Assembly: GCF_004010195.1 (NCBI RefSeq)
Contig: NC_057718.1
Span: 73,270,533 to 73,334,532, forward strand
Length of the DNA stretch: 64,000 bases
Reading direction: 5' to 3'
Source of the DNA: Chiloscyllium plagiosum
Taxonomy: Eukaryota
In this document: positions 36,553 through 52,405 of the stretch, piece after piece
Position numbering within the stretch: the stretch's first letter is position 1
How the letters are laid out: each line of letters opens with the position of its first letter
The notes under the pieces: generated by a model
What the model saw: the letters and a program-made list of their open reading frames with translations, nothing else
Database searches by the model: none
Told to the model about the DNA's origin: nothing
Made by a program: the position numbers and the translations under genes

Positions 36553-37641
36553 TTAACCATGTTTTTTGCATCTTATAAGCTTCCGGAAGGCTAACTTGAA
36601 ATCTTCATTGAAACTTGTGTACAAGAGAGGGTTAATTAAAGAATTGATATAGCCTAACCAAGTTAAAAAATCAGCAACTACTGGAGAAACGACACAAAGG
36701 TGCAGTCCCACACAGAGCTCTTTGATGAAAAAGGGCAGCCAGCAGATAATGAAAGCCCCAAGAATGAGTCCCAAAATGCGAGCTGCTTTCCGTTCCCTTG
36801 AGTTAGAGATTTGCTGGCGCTCTTCCATACTCCCCTGCCCATTTTCGAGTGTTGGGACCCTGACCATCAGGTGATCATTGTGAAACTTCAGTGCAGGTTC
36901 AGAGTTGTGTAGATCAGATACACAAAAGGTATGTGTCAGATTATAGCTCATGTAGATTTGGCTTTCACTGTTGCGACCAGTAAAGTGGCGGCTGGAACCA
37001 CGTTTCTGGTAAAGGTTCTTGGCAGCATGGTAGATACGGTAGTAAAGGATGAGAATTAAAGCTGATGGAATGTAAAAAGCTCCAAATGTTGAATAAATGG
37101 TGTAGATCACAAGGTCATGCTGAATTATGCACTTTTTCCCTGTAGAGTTAACATTGTGGCTCCTCCAAAACAGGGGTGGCATGGATATGAAAACAGAAAT
37201 AGTCCATACAGCCAGTATCATGACTCCCGCACGCTTGGCAGTCCTTTTTGGAGCATATTCTATGGCATCCGTGATGGCCCAGTATCTATCCAGAGCAATC
37301 ACACACAGATGAAGGATTGAGCATGTACAGAATGTCATGTCCAAACTCAACCATGCCTCACAAACAATGTAACCCAAAACCCAAGCATCAGTGGTAATGT
37401 ATATAATACTGATAGGCATTACTAGAATAGCAACAAGGAGGTCTGTCAGAGCTAGGGAACATATGAGATAGTTTGCAGGTTGGTGCAATTTCTTTGTAAT
37501 ACAAATAGCAACCATTACAGCAGAATTCAACAAAGTTGCTAGAATTGCAATTAAAGACAGAATTGAAGCAATAGCAGTCCTTTCAGTAAACGTTTTGGAT
37601 CGTCCTTGACATGATTCATTTGTGGAGTTTGAGAAGCTCAT
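36553..37641 (-). CDS. HTR1E: 5-hydroxytryptamine (serotonin) receptor 1E, intronless CDS, 362 aa
   Basis: Intact 7-TM class A GPCR with TM3 Asp (WLSLDMT), DRY, CWLPFF and NPLLY. Segments KKLHQPANYLICSLA, AAKNLYQKRGSSRH, TFCVSD, ERQQISNSRERKAARILGLILGAF and FNEDFKLAFRKLIRC match 5-HT1E rather than 5-HT1F. The ATG has A at -3. Confidence 0.95.
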   Translation of the reverse strand: MSFSNSTNESCQGRSKTFTERTAIASILSLIAILATLLNSAVMVAICITKKLHQPANYLICSLALTDLLVAILVMPISIIYITTDAWVLGYIVCEAWLSLDMTFCTCSILHLCVIALDRYWAITDAIEYAPKRTAKRAGVMILAVWTISVFISMPPLFWRSHNVNSTGKKCIIQHDLVIYTIYSTFGAFYIPSALILILYYRIYHAAKNLYQKRGSSRHFTGRNSESQIYMSYNLTHTFCVSDLHNSEPALKFHNDHLMVRVPTLENGQGSMEERQQISNSRERKAARILGLILGAFIICWLPFFIKELCVGLHLCVVSPVVADFLTWLGYINSLINPLLYTSFNEDFKLAFRKLIRCKKHG

Positions 37642-37809
37642 TGTTTAATGTCCAGAACACAAATGCTTACAATTTCCAAAACATGGCAGAAGATTTCCAC
37701 TGTTTCTTTTGTCAACTGAAGAGTGAGTTTAATTATTATTACTTCAACGTCAAAGTCCTGAGTGTTCTTCACAATCTTGTTTTTGTGTAACATCGACAAA
37801 ATAATTTTC

Positions 37810-39490: not shown

Positions 39491-39682
39491 GAATAGTAAT
39501 ACATGTTACTAGAATAGTAATTCAGGAGCAAAATGAGGCTCTATTCACCTGCAGGAACCTGGACAACATTCAGGTTTGGACTGTTGAGTAGCAAGCAACA
39601 TTTATGCCACAAAAGTGCTAAGTAATGACGATTATCAGCATTAGAGAATCTATAACCTTTTCTTGATATTCAATGTCATGAC

Positions 39683-39782
39683 TGTAGTAATCAGAATGAG
39701 ATCAACCAGATGGACATCAGCGAATGTGTTCCCTGATTGGGGCTGTTAACCTGGTCCAATCAGAGACACCTTTTGAGAGAAA
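39683..39782 (+). mobile_element. Probable 5' part of an LTR (Gypsy-type), cut off by the Tx1 array
   Basis: Starts abruptly with TGTAGT inside an old LINE RT remnant. Carries opposed CCAAT boxes CTGATTGG...CCAATCAG. Confidence 0.5.
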
Positions 39783-41076
39783 TGCTTGGAATTTGAATAA
39801 AGATTCGTGCACTTTGCATCTTTCACTGTGTCTCACACCTGCACACACACACCATGGGTGCTGGGGAGAAAATATGCACTACCGCACTTAGGTGGTAGTG
39901 TGGGGTTAAAGGGGAAAAAAAAGGGGAGTGTCACTAAAAAAGAAAAAAGAAAAAAAAATAAAAAAAATAAAAAAAATAAACAGGAGATTAAAGAAAAAAA
40001 AAACAGGAGTGTTCACTGGCCACCCGGGTGTTTTCCTATCTTCCTGGTGGTGGAATTTGAATAAAGATTCGTGCACTTTGTGTCTTTCACTGTGTCTCAC
40101 ACCTGCAAAAAAAAAGAAAAGAAAAGAAAAAAAAAATGAACAGGAGTGCTTGGAATTTGAATAAAGATTCGTGCACTTTGCATCTTTCACTGTGTCTCAC
40201 ACCTGCACACACACACCATGGGCGCTGGGGAAAAATAAGCACTACCGCACTTAGGTGGTAGTGTGGGGGTTAAAGAAAAAAAAAATGAACAGGAGTGCTT
40301 GGAATTTGAATAAAGATTCGTGCACTTTGTGTCTTTCACTGTGTCTCACACCTGCAAAAAAAAAGAAAAGAAAAGAAAAAAAAAATGAACAGGAGTGCTT
40401 GGAATTTGAATAAAGATTCGTGCACTTTGTGTCTTTCACTGTGTCTCACACCTGCACACACACACCATGGGTGCTGGGGAAGAAAAATAAGCACTACCGC
40501 ACTTAGGTGGAAAAAAAAAGAGAAATGTTTGGCCACCCGGGTGTTTTCCTATCTTTCTGGTGGTGAAATTGAATAAAGATTCGTGCACTTTGTGTCTTTC
40601 ACAGTGTCTCACACCTGCAAAAAAAAAGAAAAGAAAAGAAAACAAAATGAACAGGAGTGCTTGGAATTTGAATAAAGATTCGTGCACTTTGTGTCTTTCA
40701 CTGTGTCTCACACCTGCACACACACACACCATGGGTGCTGGGGAAAAAAAAAATAAAAGAGGACATCAAATAAGCGCTACCGCAGTTAGGCGGTAGTATG
40801 GGGGTTAAAAAAAAAACTGGAGCGTCAATTCTATTTTGATAAAAAAAACCCAGAAAATTTACATTAGAGCCCGGGTGTCCTTGGAGAAGGAGCACACGGT
40901 GTCCACCAACACCCTGGAGTTGTTCAGGGAGAGGTGGGCGCCGCAGGGAGTGGAGTGCATTATTTCTCCCTCCAACTCTAAATAAAAAAAAATGAACAGG
41001 AGTGCTATCACACAGCATTGCCCTTTGATGTGAAGGGCACTGCTTGTCACTGGCCACTCGGGTGTTGGCCTATCTT
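39783..41076 (+). repeat. Head-to-tail array of short Tx1 3'-end copies with A tails and TGAACAGGAGTGCT linkers
   Basis: About 10 units share segments of the Tx1 3'UTR/ORF2 end. Exact linkers at 40137, 40286, 40386, 40648 and 40993. Confidence 0.9.
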
Positions 41077-42128
41077 AAGAGTTGGAGCAGTGTGAGTGAG
41101 TGTGCACACGGGCAAGGACTCTCCTCCTTGAAGGGGACTGTCCCTGGATTAGCTGCCCTGCATCGAGAGAGAGAGAGAGAGGAAGGAAAGAAGAAGAAGA
41201 GGAGGAGGCAGAAGCAGAAGGAGGTGAGAGATTTTGAGTCTGGGGCCTATGTTTGGACCTGCAGCCTGGGCCTCACCCAGGTCAAGGGAGTGTTGCTGCT
41301 GACCTGGGGCCCACTCCCACTGCTGGTTTTTGGGACCCCGCCTGGACCTGCCTCAGCTGTTGCTGCTTGGGGCCTGCCTCACTGCTGCTGCCTGAGACTT
41401 GCCTTGGGGACCCTCCCAGGACCTCCACCACTGCTGCTGTTATTAGAGGCCCACCTCCACTGCTGCTGCCTGGGACTCAATTTTGGGGCTGACTGGGACT
41501 TGCCTTGGGGACCCTCCCCAACAGGTCTGCCCCACCAACTGCTGCAACCAAGGGCCTGCCGAGGACTTGCCAGAGGCCTGCCTCCACTGCTGCTGTTGTC
41601 TGAGGCCTGCCTCCAACAATGCTGCCTGGGACTCGCCTTGGGGCCCCTCCCAACAACCTCAACCACTACTGCTGCCTGGGACTTGCCTTGGGGACCCTCC
41701 CCAACAGGTCTGCCCCCACCGCTGCGACCGAGGGTCTGCTTAGGACTTGCCTGAGGCCTGCGTCCACCGCCACTGCCTGGGACTCGCCTTGTCCCCTCCC
41801 CAGGACCTCCAACACTGCCACTGCTGGAGGCCCACCTCCACTGCTACTGCTGCCTGGGACTCAATTTTGAGGCTGCCTGGGACTTGCCTTGGGGACCCTC
41901 CCCAACAGGTCTGCCCCCACCGCTGCGACCAAGGGCCTACCTGGGACTCGCCCGAGGCCTGCCTCCACCGCTGCTGTTGCCTGAGGCCTGCCTCCACCAC
42001 TACTGCTGCCTGAGACTCGCCTTGGGTGACTGGCCTTGGGCCCCTCCCCACAACCTCCACCACTGCTGCTGCCAGAGGCCCACCTCCACCGCTGCTGCCT
42101 GAGGTCTACAAATATCCAGCAGCAGAGT

Positions 42129-44353
42129 ATGGCGAGCCCGAAGGTCACGGGGCCTAGCCGCACCTACGCCGGGGTAGCCGCTGCTTTAGGCTCGGCTATC
42201 CCAACCCTGGCCGCAACCGCAACCCCCTTCAGGCACCTGACTAAATGCCTGGGGGTAAAGGCCTATCCCCACCCCAACATGTCCATCGAGGCCTGCAGCA
42301 AGGCCATGGCTAGTGTGGTCGGCCCACTGGCCATCGTCGCTGCGGCCCGGATGTACGGGAAGGCCGTCTTCTTCCTTAAGACCGAGCAGGCGGTCCACCT
42401 GGCCGTGGAGAGGGGGCTCACTGTGGGCGGGACACATTTGCCCGTCGACCCTCTGGAGGTTACGGCCCAGAGGGTCGTGATCTCCAACGTCCCACCCTTC
42501 ATTGCCAGCGAGCTCCTTCTACCCCACCTCACCACCTTTGGGGAGATCCGGTCAGGGGTCCAACCGCTCCTGCTCGGTCTTAAGGACCCCGCCCTCCGAC
42601 ACATCTACTCCTTCCGATGCCAGGTGTTCATTTGCCTGGCCCGGGAGGAGGTCACCGAGGGCTCATTCACACTCCTCCATGAGGGCGTGGCCTACCACGC
42701 CTTGCAGACAGCATGCGGTGCCACCTGTGCCCCGAGGTGGGGCACATTAGAAAAAACTGCCCCACCCAGAAGGCTGCCCAGCCCACGCCAACAGCTGATG
42801 GTGGTGCCGCCGCACCCACTCCCCCTCCCCCGAAGTCAACACCACAAGCCCCGGCACCGGAGAGTAAGCCGGATGCATCCGATGCTCCAGCCTCAGGCAG
42901 GGAGGGGGTGATCGTCCGGCCGGCCAGAAGGCGCTCAAGAAGACGTGACATGTCAGGCCTGCCCATGGGGAGACCACCCTATCCCCTTCCCCGACACCCA
43001 GCCCACGCCCTGCCCCACCTTGGCACGATAATGCCCCTGCGGCCGTGCCAGCATTGCCCCGGCGCGGGAACCCTGACCCCCAAACCCCCACCTGATCCTG
43101 GTCTCACTGACCCCACATCCACTCCCCACTCCGATAGAGAAACCCCTGGGGCTTCAACACCTGCCCCTGGCGCTGTAACACCTGGTCTGGGGGCCCCCGA
43201 GCCCGAGCCCTGGCACTAACCTGGGGGGAAACCACCACTACCCCACCTCCTGCAGCGACCGTGCCTCTGGGCCCTGGAGAGGGAATTGGGCCTCTTTCCC
43301 GCCCGCCGTCACCTGATAAACCAGGGGCGGGGCAAGAAGTGACACAGCTGACCCTCCCCACGCCTTCTGTCTTCCCCCAGCCAATCGTATTCCGGGAAAA
43401 GCTGGGGGGGGACCTCGGGCCCCATGACCACCAAGGCGGGCGGGGAGGGGAAGGCCCATAAATTCCCCCCTGTCTCTCTGGGGAAGAGGCACCGGCCCGT
43501 GGAGGGGAGAGACACTCCAGCAGCGCTGCCCCTCTCCAGGGGATGAGCCAACGGTGCCTCTTGACTGTCCTGCACTGCGGCCCGACCTACCCAAACCCAC
43601 AGTGGCTACAGCAGGGCCTCCTGCTGCCTCAACTCCTCCGGCCCCTTTGGAGGACTTTAACAACCACGAGGGTCGTGGTGCGGGTGACGATGGAGGACCC
43701 TCTGCTGGGTCGTCGAGCGGCGGAGGGGAGGAAGGTGTTATCCTCGCTCCTCCCTCCCAGACTGTTTTTCCGGGGGCCTTGGCCCTGGGGGAGAACCTTT
43801 TCCCCGAGGAGCCGGGCGTCTCGTTGTTGGGAGAGGAGCGGGGCCCCGGGCCTCTGCCGCCCGATGACCCGAACTCGGGGCGTTCCGGGAAGGGGTGCGC
43901 TGTGGAAGGTACTGCCGGTGACCCTGGCGGTGGGGTCGCCGGGGGTTTGAGGCCAGTTGGCTGTGCCGGACCAGCCCCCATCCTCTCGGTGGGGGAGGGG
44001 TCGGTGACAGAGGGCGACCTCCCAGAGGAGGGTTCGGGATCGGTGGCGGACACCGGGGACGACGCGGACTCTGTCTGCAGTGACGTTTGAGTCCCAGGTG
44101 CCCCCCCCACCGATCTCCCCCTCATCCCCTCGAGGAACTCTGGGAATTTGTCGAGGAAACACGGAGTTGCCAGGATAGAGCCCAACTGGCACTCGACTGC
44201 TGGAGCTCATTCGAGAGAGTTTATAGGTTGGCCCACGCTGCTTGCCAGGCGCCTGGGCTCGACGTGAATGAGCGAAAGCGAGTCAGGAACTTCCTGGGTG
44301 CGCTCCTGGTGAGGGCAAGGGACTTCTGTGCCCCTCCCTCATCCTCCCAGTAA
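42129..44353 (+). pseudogene. Tx1 ORF1 (RRM-like region, CCHC zinc knuckle, long Pro-rich linker), frameshifted
   Basis: MASPKVTG...AAARMYGKAVFFLKTEQAV...VVISNVPPFI...CHLCPEVGHIRKNC, spread over several frames. C-terminal helical block LEELWEFVEETR...RVRNFLGALL ends at 44353. Confidence 0.8.
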
Positions 44354-44408
44354 ATGTGTATATATAGGTTTTTAACTGTACTGGTGGTGGTTGCACAACG
44401 CTTCCGAC

Positions 44409-47400
44409 ATGGAGCCAACTATAGCCAGCCTCAACATCAACGGCAGCAGGGAGTCACAGCGCAGATTCCAGACCCACTCGGTCCTTCGGGACGGGAGGTA
44501 TGCGGTGTGCTTCCTGCAAGAAACCCACACTACCCCGGAGACGAAGCCACCTGGCTCCTGGTGTGGCGAGTGGGGGTGGGGTCTACATGAGTCACCTCAC
44601 CCGCAGATCTGGCGGGGTGGCTATTTTGTTGGCCCCGCATTTTCAGCCGGAGATCTTGGGGGTCAGGGAGCCCATGCCAGGCCATTTGCTTCACCCGATG
44701 GTTCGGCTGGGGGGCGCGGTGCTTCACTTGGTGAACGTCTACGCTCCCCTGGCCGGGCCAAGGCAAGCAAGCTTCTTTGAAGCAGTGTCCACTCATTACG
44801 CCTCCATCGACGAGAACCAGTGCGTCGTCCTCGGGGGAGATTTTAACTGCGTCCTCGAGGGCAGGGACCACAGCGGTGCCTGCACTGGTTGGGCATCGGG
44901 GAGGAGATTGGGGGACTTGGTCAAGTCCTTCGACCTGGTGGACGTCTGGCGAAATCTCCATCCCGACTCCATCGCCTTCACCTTCGTGAAGCCTGGGGTC
45001 GGAGCATCTAGAATCGACCGCCTGTACGTTTCACGGGCGCACGCCTCCTGTTTTCTGAAGGCCTCCACGCGGCATGTGTCGTGCACGGACCATCACCTGG
45101 TGTGGGCGGAACCTCTTCCGTTCGGCGCCAGGCTCGGCTCCGCATACTGGCACTTTAACAACCTGCTGCTGGAGGACGAGCGGTTCCGGGACTCGTTTCG
45201 TCGCTTCTGGGCCGGCTGGAGAAGGAAGCGGGGAAGCTTCCCCTCCCTGAGGCTATGGTGGGACGTGGGCAAGGCTCACGTCCGCGTCTTCTGTCAGGAG
45301 TACGCGAGGGGGTCGACGAAGAGGCAGACATCCAGGAGCGGGGAGTTGGAGAGGGAGATGCTCGACCTGGAGTCACGCCTTGGTCAGCCCGACGTGGACC
45401 CGGCCCTGCGCGGGGCNNNNNNNNTATATAGGTTTTTAACTGTACTGGTGGTGGTTGCACAACGCTTCCGACATGGAGCCAACTATAGCCAGCCTCAACA
45501 TCAACGGCAGCAGGGAGTCACAGCGCAGATTCCAGACCCACTCGGTCCTTCGGGACGGGAGGTATGCGGTGTGCTTCCTGCAAGAAACCCACACTACCCC
45601 GGAGACGAAGCCACCTGGCTCCTGGTGTGGCGAGTGGGGGTGGGGTCTACATGAGTCACCTCACCCGCAGATCTGGCGGGGTGGCTATTTTGTTGGCCCC
45701 GCATTTTCAGCCGGAGATCTTGGGGGTCAGGGAGCCCATGCCAGGCCATTTGCTTCACCCGATGGTTCGGCTGGGGGGCGCGGTGCTTCACTTGGTGAAC
45801 GTCTACGCTCCCCTGGCCGGGCCAAGGCAAGCAAGCTTCTTTGAAGCAGTGTCCACTCATTACGCCTCCATCGACGAGAACCAGTGCGTCGTCCTCGGGG
45901 GAGATTTTAACTGCGTCCTCGAGGGCAGGGACCACAGCGGTGCCTGCACTGGTTGGGCATCGGGGAGGAGATTGGGGGACTTGGTCAAGTCCTTCGACCT
46001 GGTGGACGTCTGGCGAAATCTCCATCCCGACTCCATCGCCTTCACCTTCGTGAAGCCTGGGGTCGGAGCATCTAGAATCGACCGCCTGTACGTTTCACGG
46101 GCGCACGCCTCCTGTTTTCTGAAGGCCTCCACGCGGCATGTGTCGTGCACGGACCATCACCTGGTGTGGGCGGAACCTCTTCCGTTCGGCGCCAGGCTCG
46201 GCTCCGCATACTGGCACTTTAACAACCTGCTGCTGGAGGACGAGTGGTTCCGGGACTCGTTTCGTCGTTTCTGGGCCGGCTGGAGAAGGAAGCGGGGAAG
46301 CTTCCCCTCCCTGAGGCTATGGTGGGACGTGGGCAAGGCTCACGTCCGTGTCTACTGTCAGGAGTACGCGAGGGGGTCGACGAAGAGGCAGACATCCAGG
46401 AGCGGGGAGTTGGAGAGGGAGATGCTCGACCTGGAGTCACGCCTTGGTCAGCCCGACGTGGACCCGGCCCTGCGCGGGGCATGCGAAGAGAAGAAACCCG
46501 CGCTCCAGGACCTGCAGCTCGTCGGGACTCGGGGCGCGTACATGAGGTCGCGGATCCAGCTCCTCCAGGACCTGGACCGCGGCTCCCCCTTCTTCTACTC
46601 GCTGGAAAAAAGGCGTGGCACCCGTCAGCAGCTGGCCAACAAAGGGTCCCTCGTTTCGGATCCGGAGGGCATCAGGGCCCACGTCCGAAACTATTACACG
46701 TCTCTGTTCTCTCCGGATCCGTCCAGCGAGGATGCTCGCAGTGTTCTGTGGGAGGACCTGCCACAGCTCGGCCCGGAGGACGCCGGAAGGCTCGACGCTC
46801 CCGTCACCTTAGAGGAGCTGACCGGCGCCCTCGACCGGCTCTCGAGGGGCAAAACCCCAGGGCTGGATGGGCTGACTGTGGAGTTCATCAGGGCATTCTG
46901 GGATGTCCTGGGGAGCGATTACGCACAGGTCCTGGGGGAGTGTCTAAATGCCGGAGAGCTGCCCCTTTCTTGGTGCAGGGCGGTCATTGTCCTTCTGCCA
47001 AAGAAGGGGGACCTTCGTTCCCTAAAGAACTGGGGTCCGGTCTCCCTCCTCAGCATGGACTACAAAATCTTCGCCAGGGTGTTGTCTTCTTGCCTGGCCT
47101 CCGTGCTGGCCCACATGATTCACCCGGACCAGTCCTACACGGTCCCGGGCCGGAGGATACACGATAACGTCCACCTGGTCCGGGACCTGATCCATTTCTG
47201 TCGACGGGCTGGTCTGCCGAGCGCCTTCCTGTCTCTCGACCAGGAGAAGGCGTTCGACAGGGTCGATCACGAGTACCTGCTCGGGACTTTGCGGGCATTT
47301 GGGTTCATGAGCAGTTCGTCGCCTGGATCCGACTTTTGTACGCTGCCGCAGAGTGTCTGGTTAAAGTTAACAGGTCCCTGACGGCGCCCCTTCGCTTCGG

Positions 47401-49334
47401 GAGAGGAGTGCGTCAAGGCTGCCCCCTGTCCGGCCAGCTGTAATCCCTGTGCGTGGAGCCTTTACTGCGCCTCTTGCGGAGACGGTTGTCGGGGCTGGTT
47501 CTGTGCAGCATGGGCACGGGGGTGGTCCTCTCGGCCTGCGCCGACGACGTGCTCCTCACCTTTCGCTGACCTGGGGAGGATGCACGAGTGCCAGGCCGTG
47601 TACTCGGCAGCGTCTTCTGCCAGGATTAGCTGGGCCAAATGTTCTGGACTACTGGTCAGTCCATGGCAGGTGGACTCTCTGCCAGAGGAGTTACAGGGGT
47701 TCAGCTGGAGTACCACCCATCTCCTCTACCTGGGGGTCTACCTCAGCCCGGCTGAGGAATCCTGGCCGGCCAACTGGCAGGAGCTGGAGGCCAAAGTCTC
47801 GGCTCGCCTAGCACTGCTCCGAGTGCTATCTTACAGGAGTCGAGTGCTGGTCATAAACCAGCTGGTGGCCGCCATGCTGTGGTACCAGCTGGTCACTTTG
47901 GTCCCTCCTCCTGGCTTTGTCGCTGACATCAAGAGAACGTTGGTCGACTTCTTCTGGGACAAAAGGATGCGTTGGGTTGCTGTGCAGGTTCTGAGTCTCC
48001 CTATTGCGGAGGGCGGTCAGTCGCTGGTGTGCGTCCGCACCCAGGTCACGACGTTCCACCTTCAGACCTTTATGTCGAGCCTCCTCCTAGGTGGTGCGCC
48101 CTGGCGACATATTTTTTCCGCCAGGTGCGTAACCTCGACTACGACACGCAGCTCCTGTTCATCGACCGTGACGGTTTGGAGGTCGCCCTCAAGACGCTGC
48201 CTGTCTTTTACCAGGATCTGATCACTGTCTGGAACATGGTCGAATCGCGTCGCGCCTACCCTCCGCCTGGAGTAGTGGCTGTCGTCAGGGAGTCGTTGCT
48301 CAGGAATCCACACCTCCGTACTCGCGGGTTCGAGTGGCTGTCGAAGGGGAGGGCCGTGGCGGCGAGGGTGACCAGGGTCGGGGACGTGCTGGGTGCCGGG
48401 GGCCTGGGCTGGACGCTGCCGCAGGACATAGCGAGCAGGGCAGCGGTAGAGGTCCGGTACATGGCCACCGCCATCCGACGCCTTAAAACGGCGGTGCTCG
48501 GACCCTACGTAGTGCACCAGTTGGAGGACGCTCAGGTGTGCGGTGGGAAGACGTCCACTCTCATCCCAACCCGTATGGAATTTCACATAGGCTCCCGCGG
48601 GAAGTACGGGACCTTGGGGCCAATGTCCCACAACCTGAGCCGTCTCCGGAATTTTAATTTTGTCCCTTTTTTTTAAGGATGTAAAAAGGCGGGCCGTGTA
48701 TCGACTGCTGCTGCACACCGTCCACCTCTTTTCTCCCTCATCCACCGTCCGGACACGCCTTGGCGTGCCCATTTGCTACTGGGTGGTGGGGATCCCCAGT
48801 GGAGTGCTCTCTACGCGGGAGTCCTCCCCCTTTCTCTCGGGGATCTGGGGTGGAGGGTGCTGCACGCAGCAGTCCCCTGCAACCGCAGATTGCGGTGGTT
48901 CACGGACTCCCAGCCCAACTGCTTGTTCTGTGGCGCTGTGGAGTCCGTGGACCACGTATATATTGGGTGTGGGGCGTTTGCACTCCCTTTTTGATTTTCT
49001 GAAAAACCTTCTCCTCTGTTTTTGGCTGCACTTCAGTCCCACGCTCCTGATCTTTGGGCACCCGGTACGGAGGAAGGAGGGCAGGTCTGAAGACCTCCTC
49101 GTGGGTCTGCTCCTGGGCCTGGCCAAACTGGCCATCAACAGGTCCAGGCAGCGGGCCGTGGAGGGGGTCGTTAAGGCCGACTGCCTGCCCCTCTTCCGCG
49201 GTTACGTTAGAGCCCGGGTGTCCTTGGAGAAGGAGCACGCGGCGTCGACCAACACCCTGGAGTTGTTCAGGGAGAGGTGGGCGCCGCAGGGAGTGGAGTG
49301 CATCATTTCTCCCTCCAACTCTATTTTGATTTAG
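44409..49334 (+). pseudogene. Tx1 ORF2 (APE endonuclease + reverse transcriptase), frameshifted
   Basis: APE motifs IASLNING, FLQETH, LVNVYAP, GGDFN, SRIDRLY, TDH. RT motifs GKTPGLDGL, PVSLLSMDYKIF, LDQEKAFDRVDH, GVRQGCPLS, (C)ADD. C-terminal CLFCGAVESVDH. Confidence 0.9.
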
Positions 49335-49957
49335 TCCCTACCCTCCCCTTCACTGTTTTGATCACACAGCACTGCCCCTTGATGTGAAGGGCAGTGTTTG
49401 TCACTGGCCACCCGGGTGTTTGCCTATTGTGAGTGTATGTNNNNNNNNNNNNNNNNNNNNNNNNNNNNNNNNNNNNNNNNNNNNNNNNNNNNNNNNNNNN
49501 NNNNNNNNNNNNNNNNNNNNNNNNNNNNNNNNNNNNNNNNNNNNNNNNNNNNNNNNNNNNNNNNNNNNNNNNNNNNNNNNNNNNNNNNNNNNNNNNNNNN
49601 NNNNNNNNNNNNNNNNNNNNNNNNNNNNNNNNNNNNNNNNNNNNNNNNNNNNNNNNNNNNNNNNNNNNNNNNNNNNNNNNNNNNNNNNNNNNNNNNNNNN
49701 NNNNNNNNNNNNNNNNNNNNNNNNNNNNNNNNNNNNNNNNNNNNNNNNNNNNNNNNNNNNNNNNNNNNNNNNNNNNNNNNNNNNNNNNNNNNNNNNNNNN
49801 NNNNNNNNNNNNNNNNNNNNNNNNNNNNNNNNNNNNNNNNNNNNNNNNNNNNNNNNNNNNNNNNNNNNNNNNNNNNNNNNNNNNNNNNNNNNNNNNNNNN
49901 NNNNNNNNNNNNNNNNNNNNNNNNNNNNNNNNNNNNNNNNNNNNNNNNNNNNNNNNN

Positions 49958-50515
49958 CATGCTCCTGATCTTTGGGCACCCGGTACGGAGGAAGGAGGGC
50001 AGGTCTGAAGATCTCCTCGTGGTTCTGCTCCTGGGCCTGGCCAAACTGGCCATCAACAGGTCCAGGCAGCGGGCCGTGGAGGGGGTCGTTAGGGCCGACT
50101 GCCTGCCCCTCTTCCGCGGTTACGTTAGAGCCCGGGTGGCCTTGGGGAGGGAGCACGCGGTGTCCACCAACACCCTGGAGTTGTTCAGGGAGAGGTGGGC
50201 GCCGCAGGGAGTGGAGTGCATTGTTTCCCCCTCCAACTCTATTTTGATTTAGTCCCTACCCTCCCCTTCACTGTTTGATCGGACAGCACTGCCCTTTGAT
50301 GTGAAGGGCAGTGTTTGTCACTGGCCACCCGGGTGCTTTCCTATCTTCCTGGTGGTGGAAATTGAATAAAGATTTGTGCACTTTGTGTCTTTCACTGTGT
50401 CTCACACCTGCCCACACACACACAACATGGGTGCTGGGGGAAAAAATAAGCACTACCGCACTTAAGTGGTAGTGTGGGGGTTATATATTTTTAAAAAAAG
50501 AAGAAAAAGAAAAAA
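49958..50515 (+). mobile_element. Tx1 3' fragment (end of ORF2, full 3'UTR and A tail)
   Basis: Near-identical to 49040-49427 with several substitutions, and continues to an A-rich tail. The left edge is a gap. Confidence 0.8.
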
Positions 50516-51130
50516 TGAACAGGAGTGCTTTTTCCCCCTCCAACGCTATTTTGATTTAGTCCCTCCCCTCCCCTTCACTGTTTGATCACACAGCATTGCC
50601 TTTTGATGTGAAGGGCACTGCTTGTCACTGGCCACTCGGGTGTTTTCCTATCTTCCTGGTGGTGGAAATTGAATAAAGATTTGTGCACTTTGTGTCTTTC
50701 ACTGTGTCTCACACCTGCCCACACACACACAACATGGGTGCTGGGGGAAAAAATAAGCACTACCGCACTTAAGTGGTAGTGTGGGGGTTATATATTTTTA
50801 AAAAAAGAAGAAAAAGAAAAAATGAACAGGAGTGCTTTTTCCCCCTCCAACGCTATTTTGATTTAGTCCCTCCCCTCCCCTTCACTGTTTGATCACACAG
50901 CATTGCCTTTTGATGTGAAGGGCACTGCTTGTCACTGGCCACTCGGGTGTTTTCCTATCTTCCTGGTGGTGGAAATTGATTAAAGATTTGTACACTTTGT
51001 GTCTCACACCTGCACACACGCACCATGGGTGCTGGGGAAAAATGAGCACTACCGCAGTTAGGGGGTTAATTAAAAAAAAACAGATGATAAGGGCACTGGT
51101 TGTCACTGGCCACTCAGGTGTTTTCCTTTT
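50225..51130 (+). repeat. Tandem 307-bp repeat of the Tx1 3'UTR + A tail + linker (about 2.8 units)
   Basis: Linkers at 50516 and 50823 (period 307). The third unit is diverged and runs into the 5' end of the second Tx1 copy. Confidence 0.9.
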
Positions 51131-52405
51131 GAGAGCTGGATCAGTGTAAGTGTGAGTGTGAGTGCGCACGTGCAAGGACTCTCCTCCTTGAAGGGGACTG
51201 TCCCTGGACCAGCTGCCCCACATCCAGAGAGCTGAAGGAAGGAAGAGGAGGAAGATGAAGAAGGAGGTGAGAGCTTTGAGTCTGGGGCCTACTTTTGGAG
51301 CTGCAGCCTGGGCCTCACCCAGGTCAAGGGAGTGTTGCTGCTGACCTGGGGCCCACTCCCACTGCTGCTGCCTGGGACTTGCCTTGGGGCCCCTCCCAGA
51401 ACCTCCATCACTGCCGCTGCTGTTAGAGGCCCACCTCCACCGCTGCTGCCTGGGACTTGCCATGGGGACCCTCCCCAACAGGTCTGCCCCCACTGCTGCG
51501 ACCAAGGGCCTGCCTCCAACGCTGAGGCCTGCCTTCACCATCGCTGCCTGGGACTCAATTTTGGGGCTGTCTGGACCCTCCCCAACAAGTCTGCCCCCAC
51601 CGCTGCGACCAAGGGCCTACCTGGGACTTGCCCAAGGCCTGCCTCCAGCGCTGCTGTTGCCTGAGGCCTGCCTCCACCACTACTGCTGCCTGAGACTCGC
51701 CTTGGGTGACTGGCCTTGGGCCCCTCCCCACAACCTCCACCACTGCTGCTGCCAGAGGCCCACCTCCACCGCTGCTGCCTGAGGCCTATCAACATCCAGC
51801 AGCAGAGTATGGCGAGCCCGAAGGTCGCGGGGCCCAGCCGCACCTACGCCGAGGTAGCCGCTGCCTTAGGCTCGGCTGCTCCGGCCGGCCAGAAAGGCGC
51901 TCAGGAAGACGCAACATGTCCTGCAGTAAGGCCATGGCTAGTGTGTGGTCGGCCCACTGTCCATCGTCGCTGTGGCCCGGATGTATGGGAAGGCCGCCTT
52001 TTTCCTTAAGACCGAGCAGGCGGTCTACCTGGCCGTGGAGAGGGGGCTCACTGTGGGCGGGACACATTTACCCGTCGACCCTCTGGAGGTTACGGCCCAG
52101 AGGGTCGTGATCTCCAACGTCCCGCCCTTCATTGCCAGTGAGCTCCTTCTCCCCCATCTCACCACCTTGGGGCAGATCCGGTCGGGTATCCAACCACTCC
52201 TGCTCAGTCTTAAGGACCCCGCCCTCCGACACGTGTACTCCTTCCGACGTCAGGTGTTCATTTGCCTGGCCCGGGAGGAGGTCACCGAGGGCTCTTTCAC
52301 ACTCCTCCACGAGGGCGCGGCCTACCGTGTCTCCTTGTTTACGGACGGCGTGCGGTGCCACCTGTGCCGAGAGGTGGGGCACATTAGAAAAAACTGTCCC
52401 ACCCC
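51131..52405 (+). mobile_element. Second Tx1 copy: 5'UTR and ORF1 N-terminal part, 3'-truncated
   Basis: Aligns by eye with 41077-42765; MASPKVAGPSRTYA...CHLCREVGHIRKNCPT, then an abrupt end. Confidence 0.85.

What the first reader, a model, noticed from the sequence alone, without database searches (positions are those of the whole stretch)
41007..41140. Intact 5' ends are fused to the same point of the element's own 3'UTR (terminal redundancy or self-targeting)
Seen: both 5'-intact copies start right after ...CACTGGCCACTC(G/A)GGTGTT(GG/TT)CCT (junctions about 41076 and 51130). The main copy's own 3'UTR breaks at the same place (49427) into TGTGAGTGT, which resembles the 5' start, before the gap. 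The 11-mer CCTTTTGAGAG at the second junction (51125) also occurs at the extreme left edge of the array (39769). The site follows the 10-bp palindrome CACCCGGGTG in some copies. Inference: either the element has a 3'UTR-derived pseudo-terminal repeat (as in TART or TRE5-A), or it inserts into its own 3'UTR (as Chlorella Zepp inserts into itself).
Basis: partly seen in the sequence, partly recalled or inferred. Interest (0 to 1): 0.7.

Follow-up and report, generated by a model that had tools for sequence, protein, structure and literature searches.

The report
LINE begins with its own near-tail
A jumping gene related to the frog element Tx1 carries a short copy of its own near-tail at its front end, likely inherited from one old fusion rather than made by inserting into itself, and that copy would let a new insertion pair with neighbours already stacked at the same landing site.

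Summary
Both 5'-intact copies of this Tx1L-like LINE (ORF2 50% identical to Xenopus Tx1L) start with a 3'UTR piece (70 and 39 nt) that stops at nearly the same point, about 95 nt past the ORF2 stop. The copies are about 83% identical with different upstream DNA, so this is no recent local duplication. Public contigs show the fusion under two species labels, but not before every head. Self-targeting is unlikely: 0 of 10 truncated pieces start at that point, and 8 of 12 piece starts follow an A tail plus a spacer that behaves as the target duplication. The front piece differs from its own element's 3'UTR (6/66) more than from other copies (3/70), so it looks inherited, not refreshed each cycle. 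The main copy's break at 49427 sits 13 nt from a gap and is weak. The 11-mer match is real but unexplained; the palindrome is irrelevant. Earlier unreviewed notes of this scan reported the same front duplication and an LTR target elsewhere in this genome. A new variant of known Tx1/R1 behaviour.

The parts
39674..39764 (+). Left flank that looks like the start of an LTR (TG start, CCAAT box on each strand); LTR identity inferred, not tested
   Evidence: Sequence; CTGATTGG at 39733 and CCAATCAG at 39756; no second copy in the window; first array piece starts 29-31 nt after the CCAAT
39769..39779 (+). 11-mer shared with junction 2; meaning unresolved
39776..39784 (+). AGAGAAATG at the array edge, repeated at 40519-40527 after an A tail: candidate local target duplication
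39787..40979 (+). Stack of 5'-truncated 3'-end pieces with A tails, mostly separated by the spacer; five share one 5' start but have different 3' ends
40993..41006 (+). Spacer TGAACAGGAGTGCT after an A tail (inferred target-site duplication); its core occurs 8 times, all in the array
   Evidence: similar spacers in 7 of the 12 joint rows shown table 5c
41007..41076 (+). Front repeat of copy 1: 70-nt piece of the 3'UTR
41077..42128 (+). Head and repeat-rich 5'UTR of copy 1
42129..43219 (+). ORF1 region (ATG at 42129, frameshifted, CCHC knuckle at about 42719-42760); its end was not fixed
44409..49334 (+). ORF2 (endonuclease and reverse transcriptase), frameshifted; 44361-45416 and 45425-46480 are a 99.6% duplicate around an 8-N gap, probably an assembly artefact
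49335..49427 (+). 3'UTR of the main copy, broken 93 nt after the stop
49428..49440 (+). Head-like 13 nt at a contig end, before the gap 49441-49957
49958..51079 (+). ORF2 end with a complete 3'UTR and A tail, then two spacer-led truncated pieces (307-nt period)
51089..51127 (+). Front repeat of copy 2: 39-nt piece of the 3'UTR
51128..52404 (+). Head, 5'UTR and ORF1 start (ATG 51809) of copy 2, cut off at its 3' side without a tail

Best explanation
[quoted passage not shown] Shown: the layout spacer - front repeat - head in copy 1; a shorter front repeat in copy 2; stacks of truncated copies separated by the spacer; the same fusion in public contigs. Inferred steps: (1) in an ancestral stack a resident 3' piece ending about 95 nt past the ORF2 stop came to abut the head; (2) transcription starts upstream of the head, inside that piece, probably driven by the CCAAT-bearing target repeat; (3) reverse transcription primed at the spacer copies the front repeat to a variable length; (4) because the end of the new cDNA matches the 3'UTR of any resident copy, it can sometimes anneal there and give a tail-less join, which would explain 49427. 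Step 4 is the weakest.
For: The front piece precedes 2 of 2 intact heads, and 0 of 10 truncated pieces start at the break; 8 of 12 piece starts follow the spacer, 2 follow GAGAAATG, 2 follow other A-rich words. Five copies of the break site in the array are uninterrupted (40035, 40548, 50340, 50647, 50954). The two front pieces start at different points and have unrelated upstream DNA; the copies are about 83% identical. Front piece 1 differs from its own element's 3'UTR at 6/66 and from the copies at 50585 and 50892 at 3/70, as expected for inheritance. Run X5 (organism A): 3 of the 4 upstream loose-end rows shown read as 3'UTR up to this junction, the fourth as 3'UTR joined further into the head, and summed depth is flat (391-425) across 51120-51139. 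Run X8 (organism B): one contig (depth 51.9) joins the 3'UTR at 50961 to a head. In one search, 7 of the 12 rows shown in table 5c have an A run plus a spacer-like word, then 3'UTR restarting at seven different points (50837-50912), none at the break. Precedents: melanogaster-type R1 RNAs carry upstream sequence ending at a fixed point and give either a duplication plus that sequence or a precise annealed junction (PMC2718515, passages); Tx1-mobilised SINEU-2 gains 5' extensions, and two crocodilian Tx1 families prefer LTR retrotransposons (PMC4494074).
Against: In X8 the 3 upstream loose-end rows shown (13 contigs, agreement 0.56-0.72) are not 3'UTR-like and depth falls from 291 to 46 across 51128 to 51116, so the front repeat is not universal there. 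In X5 the two largest rows have median loose lengths of 13 and 15 letters, so only some of their 14 contigs reach into the 3'UTR; no contig meets the tool's 31-letter rule for bridging; the X8 joint has a 25-letter side and rests on one contig. 45 loose-end rows and 53 joints and 86 table-5c rows were not shown. Junction 3 has the other 3'UTR variant directly upstream, which simple inheritance does not give. No transcription start was mapped. Heads in contigs may belong to short non-autonomous copies.
Confidence: 0.6

Rival explanations
1. The front repeat is rebuilt in each cycle, by a template jump from the RNA's 5' end to its own or a neighbour's 3'UTR, as proposed for TART.
For: Junction 3 joins the main copy's own 3'UTR variant, with ORF2 upstream, to a head-like 13 nt; its last letters (TTTGCC) resemble junction 1 and the X5 row at 51155 rather than the 5 uninterrupted 3'UTRs. 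The template-jump idea is stated as a possibility for TART (PMC1636488, passages).
Against: Front piece 1 and the main 3'UTR differ at 6/66. Both window front pieces, and the two X5 rows that reach a diagnostic site, show the variant that the main copy lacks, although that other variant makes up about half of X5's 3'UTR depth at two of three such sites (table 3); four non-independent observations, a hint only. Junction 3 is at a contig end.
Confidence: 0.15
2. The fusion is a recurrent accident: RNAs that end early near this point are joined to the head by template switching or RNA ligation, many times independently.
For: A runs attach at 50952, 50955, 50965 and 50975, so copies do end near the break. 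Repeated 5' additions with end points within 22 nt are described for SINEU-2 (PMC4494074).
Against: The join is tail-less, fixed within 5 nt and confined to intact heads; truncated copies should receive such additions too and 0 of 10 do.
Confidence: 0.12
3. The element targets its own 3'UTR at this site (self-insertion, as recalled for Chlorella Zepp).
For: Both intact heads and perhaps a third follow the same site. Five pieces start 8 nt downstream of the break.
Against: 0 of 10 truncated pieces follow the site; the five pieces follow a spacer or the flank, and the leftmost has no upstream 3'UTR half; restarts after A tails in contigs are variable and upstream of the break; five sites in the array are unused.
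Confidence: 0.07
4. The junctions come from a local segmental duplication or from misassembly.
For: The assembly has a 99.6% duplicate around the gap at 45417 and a 95% duplicate around the gap at 49441; junction 3 may be a misjoin.
Against: Copies 1 and 2 are about 83% identical with unrelated upstream DNA; the fusion is in contigs under two species labels.
Confidence: 0.05

Closest known systems
Tx1L of Xenopus laevis (YTX2, P0006) and crocodilian Tx1-8_Crp / Tx1-4_AMi (Kojima 2015, PMC4494074; passages and parts 3-4 of 5 read, supplements not held)
   Same: Two-ORF LINE, ORF2 50% identical over 88% of the query; target preference for other mobile elements, including LTR retrotransposons; tandem insertions around a duplication; extra 5' heads.
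   Different: The heads described there come from U1/U2 snRNA, an intron or the target transposon; a front piece from the element's own 3'UTR is not in the parts read.
R1 of Drosophila 28S rDNA, melanogaster type and tandem arrays (Stage and Eickbush 2009, PMC2718515; passages)
   Same: Arrays separated by a 14-bp duplication; full-length RNAs inferred to carry upstream sequence that ends at a fixed point, found only on full-length copies.
   Different: Another clade; the upstream tag is 6-28 nt of 28S target and the deletion is 9 bp. Here the tag is own 3'UTR and an annealed join would delete about 140 nt plus the tail.
TART and HeT-A of Drosophila telomeres (PMC1636488 and PMC5537684; passages)
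   Same: TART has a direct repeat at the 5' end and at a subterminal place in the 3'UTR; HeT-A uses the upstream neighbour's 3'UTR as promoter and buffer.
   Different: TART's repeats are long, include the ORF1 start, are called perfect and hold mapped start sites. Here they are 39-70 nt, non-coding, 9% apart within one element, and not telomeric.
Zepp of Chlorella and TRE5-A of Dictyostelium (PMC10088271, PMC1635262, PMC5633606; passages)
   Same: The passages show Zepp as telomeric with 'nested clusters' in a reference title, and TRE5-A with modules A, B, C.
   Different: Zepp's self-insertion and TRE5-A's repeated B module are recalled, not seen in the passages. Self-insertion fails the tests here.

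Membership tests
Tx1 clade LINE | ORF2 with APE-type endonuclease and reverse transcriptase closest to Tx1 elements | tested here: met
   Pfam RVT_1 and Exo_endo_phos; best hits are turtle proteins and Xenopus YTX2 at 49-52%; no tree was built
Tx1 clade LINE | Upstream ORF1 with CCHC knuckle, 3' A tail | tested here: met
   Knuckle in both copies; A tails; no Pfam hit for two ORF1 frames
Sequence-specific Tx1 forming tandem arrays | Copies separated by a recurring short duplication | tested here: met
   8 of 12 piece starts follow the spacer; 7 of 12 rows shown table 5c
LTR-targeting Tx1 (as Tx1-8_Crp, Tx1-4_AMi) | The empty target lies in an LTR | tested here: inconclusive
   Flank has a TG start and CCAAT boxes; no empty copy could be fetched; the rest is recall and unreviewed notes
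TART-type terminally redundant LINE | Direct repeat at the 5' end and subterminal in the 3'UTR | tested here: met
TART-type terminally redundant LINE | The two repeats of one element are identical | tested here: not met
   6/66 differences within the main copy, 3/70 to other copies; the main copy's 3'UTR ends at a gap
TART-type terminally redundant LINE | Transcription starts inside the repeat | not testable with these tools
   Only 5 RNA reads lay on the head in run X21
Self-inserting LINE (Zepp type, definition recalled) | Truncated and full copies alike start at one internal site, with the host copy resuming after the tail | tested here: not met
   0 of 10 truncated pieces; variable restarts

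The most novel reading that the evidence does not exclude
The front repeat is a working part. It serves as expendable leader for an RNA started from the target's promoter, and as a homology arm that joins new full-length copies onto the 3'UTR of resident copies. A vertebrate LINE would thus have evolved an LTR-like terminal redundancy out of its own tandem stacks, independently of TART and HeT-A.
Probability: 0.25. Interest if true: 0.7.

Novelty: new variant of a known kind. Interest (0 to 1): 0.42.

Why it matters
LINEs that lack their own promoter or lose 5' sequence in each cycle need a way to keep their front end. A vertebrate Tx1 family with a short own-3'UTR leader offers a testable case of how 5' homology steers second-strand priming, which also matters for LINE-based gene insertion. 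It would be a non-telomeric parallel to the TART/HeT-A step towards terminal repeats. If the piece is only an inherited scar, it is a useful subfamily marker and little more.

Tried and rejected
No genome is held for this window, so the genome-wide junction count could not be run. Pattern scans for the left flank (viral, metagenome) and for the 3'UTR (metagenome 23, genomes 25, viral 26) found 0 loci each. Searching with translations of the junction gave no candidate and one chance hit, an unrelated repeat protein P0049, rejected. Rfam: 0 matches at gathering score in the window; 3 weak matches far below threshold in 39600-41400, so no known ribozyme or snRNA head. Folds of the 3'UTR and junctions had no shuffled control and are not used. 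RNA: no RNA holder listed; X15 gave 1 contig and X21 5 reads, 1 across the junction: no evidence either way. Summed contig depth is far higher on the 3'UTR than on the head but is no copy number. The bacterial promoter scan does not apply. The palindrome was rejected as a signal. Sequence look-ups in earlier findings were blank. A paper search with short DNA words gave one unrelated hit. Paper searches (listings only) showed no paper on a Tx1 with an own-3'UTR front repeat; most subscription journals and Repbase Reports are not held, and the supplements of PMC4494074 could not be seen and may bear on the LTR targets and 5' ends.

Full report
What the element is. The region 39787-52404 is a stack of copies of one LINE. 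ORF2 has endonuclease and reverse transcriptase domains. Its best hits are unnamed turtle proteins and Xenopus Tx1L ORF2 at about 50% identity, and ORF1 has a CCHC knuckle in both intact copies. I file it in the Tx1 clade by similarity; no tree was built. The host is probably a cartilaginous fish. That is inferred from a stingray hit at 61% over half the query, from recall and from earlier notes. No genome is held for the window.

The observation. Copy 1 reads A tail, spacer (40993-41006), 70 nt of 3'UTR (41007-41076), head. Copy 2 reads A tail, a different short word, 39 nt of 3'UTR (51089-51127), head. On the 3'UTR at 50830-51075 the pieces end at 50961 and 50956, and the main copy's 3'UTR breaks at the equivalent of 50958. 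This is 93-95 nt past the ORF2 stop and about 140 nt short of the longest tail. The copies are about 83% identical in 5'UTR and ORF1 and their upstream DNA does not align, so a recent local duplication is excluded. The 11-mer at 39769 and 51125 is real and unlikely by chance. It may be target-flank sequence related to the head, or the remnant of a deleted head; I could not tell. The palindrome is in neither front piece.

Self-targeting fails. If the site were the target, truncated copies would start there too. Of 12 piece starts, 10 belong to truncated copies and none follows the site; 8 of the 12 follow the spacer, 2 follow GAGAAATG (the left flank and 40519) and 2 follow other A-rich words. 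Five copies of the site in the array are uninterrupted. In public contigs, 7 of the 12 rows shown of table 5c (86 not shown) have an A run and a spacer-like word followed by 3'UTR restarting at seven different places, none at the break. One point for self-targeting: five pieces start 8 nt downstream of the break. But they follow the spacer or the flank, and the leftmost has no upstream half.

Terminal redundancy holds, with limits. I laid 4 of the 24 listed runs on 50830-51500 and 4 on 51116-51225, 6 different runs in all. In X5 (organism A), 3 of 4 upstream loose-end rows shown read as 3'UTR up to this junction and the fourth as 3'UTR joined further into the head. Depth is flat across the junction, and two contigs (depth 177.8 and 50.1) cross it. 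The two largest rows have median lengths of 13 and 15 letters, so only part of their contigs reach the 3'UTR, and no contig meets the 31-letter bridging rule. In X8 (organism B) one contig joins the 3'UTR at 50961 to a head (side 25). The 3 upstream rows shown for X8 are mixed and not 3'UTR-like, and depth drops upstream of the junction. So the fusion occurs under both species labels, looks common in A and is not universal in B. 45 rows were not shown. RNA data were too thin to use.

Inherited or rebuilt. The 3'UTR comes in two variants. Front piece 1 differs from its own element's 3'UTR at 6 of 66 sites and from the copies at 50585 and 50892 at 3 of 70; front piece 2 is also closer to those (2/39 against 5/39). 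That fits one old fusion passed on through the RNA, and does not fit repeats refreshed in each cycle. The exception is 49427, where the other variant, with ORF2 upstream, runs into 13 head-like letters. Its last letters resemble junction 1 rather than the five uninterrupted 3'UTRs. It could be a homology-guided join, an unequal crossover between the two repeats, or a misjoin at a contig end; the assembly has duplicates around both nearby gaps.

Mechanism. I propose that the RNA starts inside the front piece, is reverse transcribed at the spacer, and leaves spacer - front piece - head. Where a resident 3'UTR lies upstream, the cDNA end may anneal to it and give a tail-less join. The layout is shown; the start site, the promoter and the annealing step are inferred. 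The left flank has a TG start and CCAAT boxes, and the first piece starts 29-31 nt after the CCAAT. That it is a Gypsy-type LTR, and that the head derives from that LTR, rests on recall and on unreviewed notes; I could not fetch an empty copy.

Known systems. Kojima 2015 (PMC4494074; passages, parts 3-4 of 5) reports Tx1 families that prefer LTR retrotransposons, tandem insertions around a duplication, and 5' extensions by template switch or upstream transcription. Stage and Eickbush 2009 (PMC2718515; passages) describe R1 arrays and an upstream tag with a fixed end on full-length copies only, the closest working analogy. TART has the same layout with long repeats (PMC1636488, PMC5537684; passages). 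The passages on Zepp and TRE5-A did not show self-insertion or a repeated module; those are recalled. Searches listed no paper on this feature in a Tx1, within a library that lacks most subscription journals and Repbase Reports.

Earlier notes. This scan had already noted, on other pieces of this genome, the LTR target, copying of neighbours' 5' junctions, and full-length copies that begin with a duplicate of their near-tail. They are unreviewed AI notes, used as leads and not as support. I tested the front repeat, the spacer and the shared 5' starts here; I did not test the LTR origin of the head.

Verdict. Real, probably family-level, a new variant of known Tx1 and R1 behaviour. Interest 0.42; 0.7 if the repeat proves to be a working homology arm (probability about 0.25).

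Noticed in passing
window 39787, 40151, 40300, 40400, 40662: Five truncated pieces share one 5' start but have at least four different 3' ends, one from a diverged subfamily; the leftmost follows the flank, the others the spacer. Plain tandem duplication explains only part of this.
   Followed up: partly
window 39843-40979; joints at 50952-51042: A tails attach at many points of the 3'UTR and even at the end of ORF2 (40979), so the 3' end of the RNA is variable.
   Followed up: partly
places 51184 and 51222: Contigs show the head ending in an A run plus spacer, which suggests very short head-only copies.
   Followed up: no
window 44361-46480: 1056-nt duplicate at 99.6% around an 8-N gap inside ORF2; probably an assembly artefact.
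   Followed up: partly
window 40776-40800 against 50451-50475: The hairpin near the 3' end keeps its stem in a diverged copy, with changes inside it (alignment); a candidate recognition signal.
   Followed up: no
window 36553-37644, minus strand: Intact single-exon rhodopsin-family receptor (Pfam 7tm_1) about 2 kb from the array; it looks like a serotonin 5-HT1 type receptor (recalled).
   Followed up: no
window 51880-51920: Copy 2 has a 41-nt stretch matching 42915-42954 out of order, an internal rearrangement of ORF1.
   Followed up: no
run X15, place 51170-51223: One 156-nt contig lies on the head in both orientations; depth 4.2, may be an error.
   Followed up: no
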